DNA of 64,000 nucleotides, taken from Escherichia coli. GTDB lineage: Bacteria; Pseudomonadota; Gammaproteobacteria; Enterobacterales; Enterobacteriaceae. Each line of letters opens with the position of its first letter. The stretch's first letter is position 1. The stretch lies in the NCBI RefSeq assembly GCF_022846255.1, contig NZ_AP025682.1; one strand, given 5' to 3'. Made by a program: the position numbers. Shown here piece by piece: positions 1 to 3,000 of the stretch.

Positions 1-3000
1 CGTTGCGAGAAATCATAATAACGGAGGCGGAAAGGATCTTTGATCGCCACAAAAATCTTGCTGGCCACTTGTGCGTAGTCGGGTTCTTCTTGTCCCGGAT
101 AGGCTTCATTGAGGTGCCCAACCAGACATAACTCCGCTTCCTTACGCGTCATTCCAGGCCGGCGCTCGCGGTCAGCATAATAAAGCATGGCGTCAAAGAG
201 ATACATGATTGCCGCCAGCGCATCAAGCTCAACACCATCGAACGGATTTCGCTGAAGGGCGCTATATATTGAATCCAGCGTCCGCACGACCAGCAAGGCG
301 TGAGACTGAATAGACAGCTCACGACGTGCCATTGATTCATTACGAGCCTGCTCCAAAAACCCTAGCGACATAACATTCTCCCTCTGAGACGGAAGCCACT
401 ATAGTACTCCCCTGCCAATTAAGCAAAGAAACTTTGCTTAATTTTTTTTTATAGCAATGTTATTTGTTTTGATGTCATTCGCCTTCTATACTCAGTCGGT
501 ATATCAAACCGCAATTGATTAACCTGCAAATAAGAATAAAACTGATATGTACTACTCAAAGTTTCTTGAGAAACACAAATCCCCCCTCAGCCACGCACAA
601 TGGTTGCGCTTGCGCTATATTGAGCGCCAGCTACTGTGGGAACGAAAAGTCACTTCGCGCATGATTGCTGAAGAGTTTGGCGTCTCGGCGCAACAAGCTC
701 GTACTGATGTAAGAACCTATATGGAGGTCGCTCCAGGCAATGCTATTGAGAAGGGGGCCGGCCGAAAAGGGTATTTCCCCAGTACGACGTTTACGCCTGT
801 TTTGCTGGGAGACAACGATCTGGTCTGGCGTGCGACGGTAGAATTTCAACCGCCGCAAGCGGCCCACGCGCAGGAAATCCCGCTCATCCATCGCGCCGTG
901 CATAGCCGCACGCTGGCAATTTTTTTGTCAGCAATCGAACAGAAAGGACAAGTAAAAGTGACTTATGCGTCAATGGAAAACCCGGAAGGCATATCTCGTA
1001 CACTAAGCCCTACGGTAATTATCACCGTTAACGGGCGTCAGCATGTGCGAGCCTATGACTGGGGAAGTTCGGCGTTTAAGGACTTTGTTTTGGCGCGATT
1101 TCTGGACTCGCCGGAACTGATTGTTCCTGCACCCGCCCCGCCACGCAAAGATACCGCGTGGGAGGTCATAATCCCCGTGCGTTTTATCGCAAATCCAACA
1201 CTAAACAAAGCGCAACAAGAGGTAATTAAGCGGGACTATTTACTTGAACCCTCTGAATTCAACATTCGTGCACCAATGATTTTTTATTTATGCCCTGAAA
1301 ACAATCTGCCTAAAACAGATGATGAATATGCACAAGCTACTGACGCCAGCAGCCACGGCCCCTTTATCTACCCTGTTCTAGCTGTGCACGCCCAAACAGG
1401 GGAGCCTATTCATAAGTACCGCCATGCAGGTGAGAGATAGACATTCTGTTTACTAATAATTTATAGCCATTTTCTGCTCCTGCATCAGAGATATGATGCA
1501 GGAATATTAAATACCAGCCACCTATAAATTATGATTTATTAATTTCTGATTCAGTTAAATCCCTCTGAAAATAGACCCGTTTTAGTTCCATGCATCTTTA
1601 GAAATTCCGACCAAATAATGGGGTCGGCAAACATCTATTTGAGACGTTGGTTCTCATCCTCAAGATCCTTGATTATTTTAATATCAGAAGATTCCATACC
1701 GCCGTATCTGGACTTGCAGTTGTAGTAAGTGGCTTAAGATAAGCCGGCCTCCCGGCAGACATCTTTAACAGTTTGCCCGTATTCAAGCGATTTAATCACG
1801 GCGATAATCTGATTCTCAGTAAAAGGGACTTTACGCATAGCGATCTCCTTCATTGGCAGATTGATTATGCCGGAGGATCTCTAAATGTTAATGGCACGAT
1901 TATGCGGGATATTTACAATACCAGTCCAACCCTCAGCTTACTGCAATGTCAATCAAGAGGGATGGTCCACATTGACGTATCAAAATCGATCTCTGACCAG
2001 CGAGCAAAACGTAGCTCACTGGAGCGAATAAAGATAAGCAGAGTGAGTTCCGTTGCCCAGCGGGTTAGCGGCCTGCCGGTATAGCCGTCTATTTTCTCAA
2101 GTAACTCAGGGATGCGCTTTAACTCCAGCGCCGGACGATGCTGTCGATTACTGGAAGCAACCGCCCCCGCCATCTCTTGTGCCGGGTTATAATCAATTAA
2201 TCCACTTTGCACTGCATAACGCATGATGGCCGTGGTGCGCTGTTGAAGGCGGGAAGCCACTTCAAAACGTCCAGATTTCTCCACGGCTTTAATGGGAATT
2301 AACAGATCGCGGGTGCCCAGTTCAGCAATATTGCGAGCAACAATTGTTGGGAAGATATTGTCCTCCAGGCTCTTTTTTCCACGATTAGCATGATCTTCCG
2401 ACCATTTTTGGTTGGTTACGAGCCACTCTCTGGCAACCTTCTCGAAAGTAATAATCTCTTTCGCCTGCTCTTCTTTCACAGCACGTTTATGCTCACGAGG
2501 ATCGATACCAGCAGCGACCAGCTTTCTGGCCTCTTCCCTTTTCTTCCGCGCATCCGCCAGCGAAACATCCGGGTAAACGCCGAACGCCATCAAATGTTGT
2601 TTACCACCAAAACGGAAACGAAATCGCCAATACTTTGAACCGCCAGGTTTTACAAGTAAAGACATGCCGTCGCCGTCAACAAGTGAATACTCTTTCTCCT
2701 CAGGTTTTGCAGGACGAACTTTAGTATACGTTAGGGCTATAGTGGTCTTCCTTCCATTGGTATCTCGTGAGTATACAAGCAATATCGAATCGGCAAATAT
2801 ACTTATAAGTATACTCACAAGCCTGTTGATGTGGGTTGAGTCAGGTTGACTTCAGTTGAGGAGAAAAGCTGGAAAAGCCTTGCGTAGCGCGGATTTCAGG
2901 CATAAAAAAAGACCTCAGTTGAGGTCTATTTACATACTTTTGGTGCGAAGGCCGGACTCGAACATATTAATTATCCCGTTGTATTTAAGGCTATTTTATC

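What the first reader, a model, noticed from the sequence alone, without database searches (positions are those of the whole stretch)
1..1440. Divergent gene pair in the older island remnant: partial unknown ORF and putative HTH regulator
A minus-strand ORF running off the window and a plus-strand 297-aa putative regulator are separated by a ~175-bp AT-rich region with a T-run, a typical divergent promoter arrangement. The regulator's domain assignment is uncertain.
Basis: partly seen in the sequence, partly recalled or inferred. Interest (0 to 1): 0.3.

Follow-up and report, generated by a model that had tools for sequence, protein, structure and literature searches.

The report
BrxR-type regulator facing a Wadjet operon
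The "unknown" partial gene is the start of an anti-plasmid Wadjet (type III JetABCD) operon and the 297-aa gene facing it is a BrxR/CapW-type WYL repressor, with a conserved palindromic operator between them; this is a known kind of defence-gene regulation and therefore ordinary.

Summary
A minus-strand ORF starts at 371 and runs off the window. A 297-aa plus-strand ORF lies at 547..1440. Between them is a 175-bp spacer of 35% GC with a T9 run.

The partial ORF is the first 123 aa of JetA of a type III Wadjet system (PADLOC JetA3, E=1.4e-81). A 99.7%-identical E. coli genome shows jetA-jetB-jetC-jetD continuing to the left.

The 297-aa protein belongs to the BrxR/CapW wHTH-WYL-WCX family (BrxR 7T8K, E=1.5e-28). 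RefSeq already names it "BrxR family" in some genomes.

In 11 genera the same five-gene cassette (jetDCBA, then divergent brxR) recurs with unrelated flanks. The spacer holds a perfect 27-bp palindrome at 417-443 (P about 5e-5 in shuffles). Its dyad symmetry is kept across genera through symmetric base changes, and it overlaps the predicted -35 box of the jetA promoter.

Most likely mechanism: a BrxR dimer represses jetABCD and releases the DNA on binding ssDNA. One local twist is that the family's RWHVR motif reads RQHVR here.

BrxR-Wadjet co-localisation is already published. Verdict: a new member of a known kind, of low interest.

The parts
1..371 (-). 5' part of jetA (first 123 codons of a 488-aa type III Wadjet JetA); the rest of jetA and jetB, jetC, jetD lie left of the window
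   Evidence: Translation. PADLOC JetA3 PDLC00564 E=1.4e-81, profile positions 1-123 of 488. In E. coli CFSAN061771 (L001, 99.7% identical) the full operon is present: JetA3 and JetC3 at E=0, JetD3 at E=4.4e-244.
378..382 (-). Shine-Dalgarno of jetA (GGGAG, 6 nt before the ATG)
   Evidence: Read from the sequence. The CTCC block is invariant or nearly so in 12 loci.
398..403 (-). Predicted -10 box of the jetA promoter (TATAGT on the minus strand)
   Evidence: Inference from the sequence. ACTATA is conserved in 11 of 12 loci; Oceanimonas has TACATT. The site is below the threshold of the simple promoter scan because its -35 matches only 3 of 6.
421..426 (-). Predicted -35 box of the jetA promoter (TTGCTT on the minus strand, 17-nt spacer), inside the left arm of the palindrome
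   Evidence: Inference from the sequence and its position relative to the conserved -10 box.
417..443 (.). Perfect 27-bp palindrome AATTAAGCAAAG-AAA-CTTTGCTTAATT (12-3-12, or 11-5-11): candidate BrxR operator
   Evidence: Found. One of 20,000 dinucleotide shuffles of the spacer reaches 12-nt arms. It sits at the same position in 11 genera, with 93 of 121 arm cells complementary in register against 25-50 in shifted registers, and symmetric double changes at 5 of 11 arm positions. It occurs once in the window and once in L001.
442..450 (+). T9 run next to the palindrome
   Evidence: Sequence. The run is not conserved in other genera, so it is probably not functional in itself. Its two leftmost T's belong to the palindrome.
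454..472 (+). Conserved block GCAATGTTATTTGTTTTGA, holding the predicted -35 box (TTGTTT, 464-469) of the regulator's promoter
   Evidence: Conservation; the promoter assignment is inference.
487..492 (+). Predicted -10 box of the regulator's promoter (TATACT, 17 nt after TTGTTT)
   Evidence: TATACT or TACACT is present in all 11 loci that carry brxR; inference.
547..1440 (+). brxR-family gene (297 aa): wHTH about residues 1-78 (nt 547-780), linker 79-121 (781-909), WYL 122-187 (910-1107), WCX/BrxR_CTD 188-297 (1108-1437), stop 1438-1440
   Evidence: PDB phmmer: BrxR 7T8K E=1.5e-28; CapW 7TB5 2.5e-23, 9C5G 3.2e-17, 7TB6 5.2e-17; BrxR 7QFZ 1.7e-13. Pfam WYL 29.1 bits against a cut-off of 21.8. 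PADLOC WYL E=9.9e-16. Precomputed WHD_BrxR and BrxR_CTD hits on homologues of 76-97% identity. The AF2 model's top 15 Foldseek hits are all BrxR or CapW. RefSeq calls it 'BrxR family helix-turn-helix transcriptional regulator'.

Best explanation
The locus is the regulatory end of a mobile five-gene defence cassette: jetD-jetC-jetB-jetA (type III Wadjet, an SMC-type anti-plasmid nuclease complex), transcribed leftward, and a divergently transcribed BrxR/CapW-family wHTH-WYL-WCX regulator.

Shown here:
- the identity of both genes;
- the fixed cassette architecture in 11 genera with unrelated flanks;
- a dyad-symmetric 27-bp element at a fixed place in the spacer.

Inferred:
- The regulator binds the palindrome at 417-443 as a homodimer. 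The palindrome covers about -52 to -26 of the predicted jetA promoter, including its -35 box, so binding would repress jetABCD.
- Binding may also affect the regulator's own promoter, about 20 bp to the right.
- As in CapW, ssDNA produced by DNA damage or foreign-DNA processing binds the WYL pocket (S142, R164, R168 and R184 are all conserved). This spreads the two wHTH domains apart and releases the operator, raising Wadjet expression.
For: Gene identities: JetA3, JetC3, JetD3; BrxR/CapW family.

Cassette: the brxR homologues of 76-97% identity examined in Brenneria, Serratia, Zobellella, Halomonas, Oceanimonas, Aeromonas, Carnimonas and a metagenome sit 172-184 bp from a divergent jetA followed by jetB, jetC and jetD, while the outer flanks are unrelated. 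Carnimonas is the partial case: its locus shows jetA and jetB, then an rve fragment at the locus edge. The reciprocal scan with JetA adds Photorhabdus and Endozoicomonas. JetA identities (74-90%) track BrxR identities.

Operator: a perfect 12-3-12 palindrome, P about 5e-5, with dyad symmetry conserved through symmetric changes. It is the only copy in the window and in L001. Its 11-5-11 geometry equals R-BOX1 of pEFER BrxR (PMC9122601). Its position over the -35 box mirrors the Acinetobacter BrxR site at -51 to -27 (PMC9122589).

One Wadjet locus without brxR (Advenella) has lost the GCAAA/TTTGC core on both halves and keeps only 5 of 11 symmetric positions.

Ligand: the four ssDNA-contacting residues of RlCapW map to invariant S142, R164, R168 and R184.

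BrxR/CapW association with Wadjet is stated in PMC9122601 and PMC11662680.
Against: - No binding, transcription or phenotype data exist for this cassette.
- Both promoters are my own reading. The consensus scan found none in the spacer at its threshold, so the operator's position relative to the transcription start is predicted.
- The Trp of the family's RWHVR motif, which PMC11662680 describes as relaying ssDNA binding to the linker helix, is Gln165 here (RQHVR) across the whole Wadjet-linked clade. The allosteric step may therefore differ.
- The recognition helix is almost invariant in the clade while the outer arm bases change symmetrically. This needs contacts from the variable wing (residues 66-73) or some selection on the hairpin itself.
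- The Advenella comparison is a single case.
- Whether this window's own jetBCD is intact cannot be seen, because it lies off the window.
Confidence: 0.7

Rival explanations
1. The hairpin plus T-run at 417-452 is an intrinsic terminator or insulator, not a protein-binding site.
For: The simple scan lists it as terminator-like on the plus strand: a 12-bp stem, a 3-nt loop and a T-run.
Against: No plus-strand gene lies upstream to be terminated, because the sequence to the left is the start of the minus-strand jetA. The stem has only 3 G-C pairs in 12. The T-run is absent in most other genera while the dyad is kept. On the minus strand no T-run follows the hairpin.
Confidence: 0.04
2. The regulator controls only itself or whatever lies downstream of it, and Wadjet is expressed constitutively. 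The conserved TTGC/GCAA motifs would then be back-to-back -35 boxes rather than an operator.
For: PMC11662680 argues that Wadjet should be constitutively expressed. In the Brenneria locus a type I BREX operon follows brxR co-directionally, the classic BrxR arrangement. The inner half-sites do coincide with a TTGCTT -35-like hexamer on each strand.
Against: The genes downstream of brxR differ in every locus, and several converge on it. The only constant partner is jetABCD. Symmetric changes in the outer arm positions are not expected for -35 boxes. The predicted -10 box of the brxR promoter (TATACT, 487-492) pairs with a different -35 box (464-469), not with the one in the palindrome.
Confidence: 0.15
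3. The protein acts as a WYL-type activator, like DriD or PafBC, and switches Wadjet on after ligand binding rather than repressing it.
For: DriD and PafBC are WYL activators and appear as weaker structural matches (E=1e-5 to 5e-4). The Trp-to-Gln change in the relay motif leaves the direction of allostery open.
Against: The closest relatives by sequence and by fold are all repressors (BrxR, CapW). The site lies over, not upstream of, the predicted -35 box of the jetA promoter. The domain order and length fit BrxR/CapW, not DriD or PafBC.
Confidence: 0.08

Closest known systems
BrxR of Acinetobacter sp. NEB394 (PDB 7T8K/7T8L; PMC9122589)
   Same: It is the best sequence and fold match (E=1.5e-28; Foldseek 4.5e-15; about 28% identity). 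It has the same wHTH-WYL-WCX layout. It binds a pseudo-palindrome (10-5-10) covering the -35 box at -51 to -27. The element here has nearly the same size and the same predicted position.
   Different: The Acinetobacter gene is co-directional and first in a BREX operon, whereas this one is divergent from a Wadjet operon. The base-contact motif SRQQ is SAQQ here (R38 corresponds to A48), and the operator sequence is unrelated (ATACCGTAAA... against AATTAAGCAAA...). RWHVR is RQHVR here.
CapW (P. aeruginosa 7TB5, S. maltophilia 7TB6, R. leguminosarum 9C5G; PMC11662680)
   Same: It belongs to the same family (E=2.5e-23 to 5.2e-17). [quoted passage not shown]
   Different: CapW controls CBASS, not Wadjet. 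The relay Trp of RWHVR is replaced by Gln165 here. No binding or induction data exist for this protein.
BrxR of Escherichia fergusonii pEFER (PDB 7QFZ; PMC9122601)
   Same: It belongs to the same family (E=1.7e-13). It binds an 11-5-11 inverted repeat (27 bp), the same geometry as 417-443. That paper reports BrxR homologues co-localised with Wadjet among other systems.
   Different: It regulates a BREX/BrxU island from upstream. Sequence identity is only about 25%, and its operator lies downstream of the promoter.
Type III Wadjet (JetABCD; PADLOC JetA3/JetC3/JetD3 models)
   Same: JetA, JetC and JetD of the 99.7%-identical E. coli locus match the type III models end to end. The window's 123-aa fragment matches the JetA3 N-terminus.
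   Different: The 298-aa gene in the jetB position has no PADLOC or Pfam hit. The structurally and biochemically studied Wadjet systems are of other types (my own knowledge, not tested here).

Membership tests
BrxR/CapW wHTH-WYL-WCX transcriptional regulators | N-terminal winged helix-turn-helix (WHD_BrxR, PF26109) | tested here: met
   Alignments to BrxR and CapW chains start at residues 10-19 and cover the wHTH. There are precomputed PF26109 hits on homologues of 76-97% identity. The model has helices at 16-30, 37-44 and 48-61. The local Pfam copy gave only weak HTH_10 and HTH_11 hits and appears not to hold PF26109.
BrxR/CapW wHTH-WYL-WCX transcriptional regulators | Central WYL domain (PF13280) | tested here: met
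   Pfam WYL E=1e-6, 29.1 bits against a cut-off of 21.8, residues 122-187. PADLOC WYL E=9.9e-16.
BrxR/CapW wHTH-WYL-WCX transcriptional regulators | C-terminal WCX domain (BrxR_CTD, PF26107) | tested here: met
   There are precomputed PF26107 hits on close homologues. PDB alignments extend to residues 239-262. Foldseek aligns 252-310 columns to BrxR and CapW chains.
BrxR/CapW wHTH-WYL-WCX transcriptional regulators | Conserved basic ligand pocket: the ssDNA-contacting Ser and three Arg (RlCapW S144, R164, R168, R184) | tested here: met
   These residues map to S142, R164, R168 and R184, which are invariant in 20 homologues.
BrxR/CapW wHTH-WYL-WCX transcriptional regulators | RWHVR motif with the relay tryptophan (highly conserved in the family, but not what defines membership) | tested here: not met
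   The motif is RQHVR (Q165) here and in all Wadjet-linked homologues, and RLHVR in the relatives of 36-39% identity. Both arginines, H and V are kept. I treat this as a clade-specific variant, not as grounds for exclusion, given the family-level E-values.
BrxR/CapW wHTH-WYL-WCX transcriptional regulators | Homodimer that binds an inverted repeat at the promoter of the associated defence genes and represses them | not testable with these tools
   Only the DNA side could be examined. A perfect, conserved, dyad-symmetric 27-bp element lies over the predicted -35 box of the jetA promoter. Binding and repression need experiments.
BrxR/CapW wHTH-WYL-WCX transcriptional regulators | Co-localisation with a defence system | tested here: met
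   The gene is divergent from type III Wadjet in 11 genera.
Wadjet type III (JetABCD) | JetA3 homology of the partial ORF | tested here: met
   PDLC00564 E=1.4e-81 over profile positions 1-123 of 488. The full-length protein in L001 scores E=0.
Wadjet type III (JetABCD) | Four-gene operon jetA-jetB-jetC-jetD | tested here: inconclusive
   The operon lies off the window. In the 99.7%-identical L001, JetC3 (E=0) and JetD3 (E=4.4e-244) follow, with an unmatched 298-aa ORF in the jetB position. Whether this window's own strain has them intact cannot be seen.
Intrinsic (Rho-independent) terminator | G+C-rich stem followed by a T-run, downstream of a gene on the same strand | tested here: not met
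   The stem has 3 G-C pairs in 12. There is no upstream plus-strand gene. The T-run is not conserved in other genera.

The most novel reading that the evidence does not exclude
This Wadjet-linked BrxR clade has replaced the relay tryptophan of the RWHVR motif by glutamine while keeping the ssDNA pocket. It might therefore couple ligand binding to DNA release differently, or respond to a different cue, for example DNA intermediates made when Wadjet itself cleaves a plasmid. That would make type III Wadjet an inducible or self-amplifying anti-plasmid system rather than the constitutive sentinel it is generally assumed to be.
Probability: 0.15. Interest if true: 0.5.

Novelty: new member of a known kind. 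Interest (0 to 1): 0.25.

Why it matters
It settles the annotation of both genes: the JetA N-terminus and a BrxR-family regulator. It also gives a concrete operator and promoter layout for a type III Wadjet cassette that can be tested directly. How Wadjet expression is controlled is little studied, and a regulator fixed inside the cassette in 11 genera suggests this lineage is kept repressed until a signal arrives. That said, WYL regulators next to defence systems, Wadjet included, are already described, so a specialist would not be surprised.

Tried and rejected
- NCBIfam release 20 gave no hit for either protein, although RefSeq names the regulator "BrxR family". The name probably comes from a rule or model outside this library, so I did not treat the miss as evidence against the assignment.
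- The consensus promoter scan found no site in the spacer. The promoters proposed here rest on conserved -10 boxes plus TTG-type -35 boxes that match only 3 of 6.
- Terminator reading of the hairpin: rejected (see rivals).
- Rfam search of 1-3100: only one sub-threshold hit, far from the spacer.
- Folding the predicted brxR 5'UTR (499-560): no structure beyond shuffles, z=0.55.
- An 11-nt copy of the operator centre inside brxR codons 4-7 (557-567) was considered as a second operator. It is not conserved in other loci or in the 97%-identical cluster representative, so it is probably chance.
- A direct-repeat search for cassette ends in L001 found nothing.
- A plasmid search found only a chromosome mislabelled as a plasmid record.
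- The PDDEXK/PDC-S11 nuclease beside jetD in E. coli was considered as a sixth cassette gene. It is rejected because it is absent beside jetD in the other loci examined.

Full report
**Observation.**
On the minus strand an ATG (reverse complement of 369-371), preceded by a GGGAG Shine-Dalgarno sequence, opens a reading frame. It runs without a stop to position 1 and off the window: 123 codons. On the plus strand an ATG at 547 opens a 297-codon ORF ending at 1440. The 175-bp spacer (372-546) has 35% G+C, against 51-55% in the flanking coding sequence, and contains a T9 run at 442-450.

**What the two genes are.**
The 123-aa fragment matches the PADLOC JetA3 model over profile positions 1-123 of 488 at E=1.4e-81. 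Pfam and NCBIfam have nothing for it.

The window is E. coli chromosome. Positions 1-1500 recur at 98-99.7% identity in 65 of 5,426 complete E. coli genomes. In strain CFSAN061771 (L001) the sequence to the left holds jetA (488 aa), a 298-aa gene in the jetB position, jetC (1,478 aa) and jetD (347 aa). JetA, JetC and JetD match the type III PADLOC models end to end: E=0, E=0 and E=4.4e-244.

The 297-aa protein matches solved structures as follows:
- BrxR of Acinetobacter (7T8K), E=1.5e-28;
- three CapW structures, E=2.5e-23 to 5.2e-17;
- BrxR of E. fergusonii (7QFZ), E=1.7e-13.

It also passes Pfam's WYL cut-off. Its homologues of 76-97% identity carry precomputed hits to WHD_BrxR, WYL and BrxR_CTD. 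An AlphaFold model (pLDDT 73.9, with a weak linker at 63-112) retrieves only BrxR and CapW chains as its top 15 PDB matches. The WYL activators PafBC and DriD follow at much weaker scores. RefSeq already labels the gene "BrxR family helix-turn-helix transcriptional regulator" in some genomes and "WYL domain-containing protein" in others.

**The pair is one cassette.**
I looked up the genomic context of homologues of the regulator at 76-90% identity in Brenneria, Serratia, Zobellella, Halomonas, Oceanimonas, Aeromonas, Carnimonas and a metagenome. In each, the gene lies 172-184 bp from a divergent jetA followed by jetB, jetC and jetD, although the Carnimonas locus shows only jetA and jetB before an rve fragment at its edge. 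The genes beyond either end are unrelated from locus to locus. Relatives of 36-39% identity lie in non-defence contexts.

I also ran the reciprocal test, scanning one genome per species (100,044 species) with a JetA alignment. It found only five loci. Four have the divergent regulator; Photorhabdus and Endozoicomonas were new. One, Advenella, has jetA directly after lysS with no regulator. JetA and BrxR identities between loci run in parallel. The conserved unit is therefore jetDCBA plus brxR, it is rare, and it is horizontally mobile.

**The spacer.**
The spacer holds a perfect palindrome at 417-443, AATTAAGCAAAG-AAA-CTTTGCTTAATT. Arms of 12 nt were reached in 1 of 20,000 dinucleotide-preserving shuffles of the spacer, and only five other such palindromes exist in the 64-kb window.

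Aligning the spacers of 11 regulator-bearing loci shows five conserved blocks:
- the jetA start and Shine-Dalgarno sequence;
- ACTATA (TATAGT on the jetA strand);
- the core GCAAAG-nAA-CTTTGC;
- GCAATGTTATTTGTTTTGA;
- TATACT.

In the palindrome, 93 of 121 arm cells are complementary in register, against 25-50 when the register is shifted. Five of 11 arm positions show symmetric double changes. Examples are AATTAAG/CTTAATT in E. coli, ATTTAAG/CTTAAAT in Brenneria and CATCAGG/GTCTGATG in Carnimonas. In the one locus without the regulator (Advenella), the GCAAA/TTTGC core is lost on both halves and only 5 of 11 positions stay symmetric. This fits relaxed constraint, but it is a single case. The element occurs only once in the window and once in the 29.5-kb L001 locus.

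**Mechanism (inferred).**
Reading TATAGT (403 to 398) as the -10 box of the jetA promoter puts a TTGCTT -35 box (426 to 421, 17-nt spacer) inside the left arm of the palindrome. The palindrome then spans about -52 to -26. This is essentially the arrangement shown experimentally for Acinetobacter BrxR: a 10-5-10 pseudo-palindrome at -51 to -27 overlapping the -35 box (PMC9122589). The 11-5-11 geometry equals R-BOX1 of E. fergusonii BrxR (PMC9122601).

The regulator's own promoter is probably TTGTTT (464-469), 17 nt, then TATACT (487-492), about 20 bp to the right of the palindrome. The consensus scan did not call either promoter, because each -35 box matches only 3 of 6. These assignments therefore rest on conservation and are not proven.

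For the signal, Blankenchip and Corbett (PMC11662680) showed that CapW binds ssDNA in its WYL pocket through S144, R164, R168 and R184, and thereby releases dsDNA. These map to S142, R164, R168 and R184 here, which are invariant in 20 homologues.

One difference stands out. The family's RWHVR motif is RQHVR here, in the whole Wadjet-linked clade. The Trp of that motif is described as the relay between the pocket and the linker helix. The base-contact motif SRQQ of Acinetobacter BrxR is SAQQ here, which fits a different operator sequence.

**Rivals.**
- Terminator reading of the hairpin and T-run (flagged). It fails because no plus-strand gene lies upstream, the stem is A+T-rich, and the T-run is not conserved.
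- Regulation only of itself or of downstream genes. This is disfavoured because the downstream genes differ everywhere. However, the Brenneria locus has a type I BREX operon right after brxR, so one regulator may serve two systems there.
- An activator role, like DriD or PafBC. This cannot be excluded without experiments, but it is disfavoured by the closest relatives and by the operator's position.

**Comparison with what is known, and novelty.**
The protein is a member of the BrxR/CapW family by sequence, domain content and fold. Co-localisation of BrxR/CapW homologues with Wadjet is stated in PMC9122601 and PMC11662680. Searches of the held literature found no study of a Wadjet-specific BrxR or of its operator.

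I therefore file this as a new member of a known kind. The local additions are the fixed five-gene cassette, the defined operator and the Trp-to-Gln variant. Interest is low, at 0.25.

**Island context.**
- Window 1-2963 is collinear with L001. Window 2964-21035 is an extra 18.09-kb island bounded by 18-bp direct repeats of the tRNA-Leu(CAA) 3' end.
- The integrase remnant at 1949-2818 lacks the catalytic domain.
- In 308 other E. coli genomes (O157:H7, O55:H7 and others) only window 1429-1500 matches. Those genomes carry a clean 10.2-kb deletion that removed the cassette and fused the last 12 nt of brxR to a phosphorothioate-dependent restriction endonuclease gene. The C-terminus ...HAGER is native to BrxR homologues in other genera.

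Noticed in passing
window 1429-1500; L007 5999-6012; L001 5230-15428: In 308 complete E. coli genomes (O157:H7, O55:H7 and others) only window 1429-1500 matches. They carry a clean 10.2-kb deletion relative to L001 that removed a PDDEXK/PDC-S11 nuclease, jetDCBA and brxR. The last 12 nt of brxR (ggtgagagatag) now form the 3' end of a 'phosphorothioated DNA-binding restriction endonuclease' gene. The ...HAGER end is native to BrxR in other genera, so this is a deletion scar, not an insertion site.
   Followed up: yes
window 2946-2963 and 21036-21053; tRNA-Leu(CAA) 21030-21114: 18-bp direct repeats of the tRNA-Leu 3' end bound an 18.09-kb island (2964-21035) that is absent from strain CFSAN061771. 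This island displaced the Wadjet-bearing older island from the tRNA.
   Followed up: partly
window 3686-5371 and 5364-7673: The first genes of the newer island are an Eco57I-like type II N6 DNA methyltransferase (PADLOC MTase_II, E=2.3e-89) and, overlapping it, a 769-aa protein with two GHKL ATPase domains (HATPase_c_3 and HATPase_c) and a weak REase_II hit. This may be a restriction-modification-like defence pair.
   Followed up: partly
window 1949-2818 (minus strand): An integrase remnant with the Arm-DNA-bind_3 and Phage_int_M domains only, with no catalytic domain. RefSeq marks the equivalent as frameshifted or incomplete, and a transposase fragment lies next to it at about 1638-1838.
   Followed up: partly
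window 557-567 (brxR codons 4-7): CAAAGTTTCTT is an exact 11-nt copy of the reverse complement of the operator centre (426-436). It is not conserved in other loci or in the 97%-identical cluster representative, so it is probably chance, although a weak second half-site (like R-BOX2 of pEFER) is not excluded.
   Followed up: partly
L004 (Brenneria goodwinii) 1951-20894: Here the same brxR sits between the divergent type III Wadjet operon and a co-directional type I BREX operon (brxA, brxB, brxC, pglX, pglZ), so a single BrxR may control two defence systems.
   Followed up: no
L018 (Advenella mandrilli) 2900-4467: A betaproteobacterial copy of this Wadjet lineage has jetA directly after lysS, with no brxR. 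The -10-like TATAGT is kept, but the dyad core GCAAA/TTTGC is degraded on both halves.
   Followed up: partly
window 454-466: GCAATGTTATTTG is one of the best-conserved blocks of the spacer across genera, more than a 3-of-6 -35 box would seem to need. Its role (UP-like element, second protein site, or part of the brxR promoter) is not explained.
   Followed up: no
L001 12006-12902: The 298-aa gene in the jetB position has no PADLOC or Pfam match, although JetA, JetC and JetD match type III models end to end.
   Followed up: no
L005 and L006 (Oceanospirillaceae): BrxR-family proteins of 36-39% identity (motif RLHVR) lie beside a CheB-like methylesterase and a LacI/sugar ABC transporter cluster, not beside recognisable defence genes.
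   Followed up: no
L001 1-6372: The same E. coli island also carries type II Zorya (zorA2, zorB2, zorE), an HNH endonuclease, a phosphorothioate-dependent restriction endonuclease and a PDC-S11-type PDDEXK nuclease just left of the Wadjet operon. This is a dense defence island at leuX.
   Followed up: no
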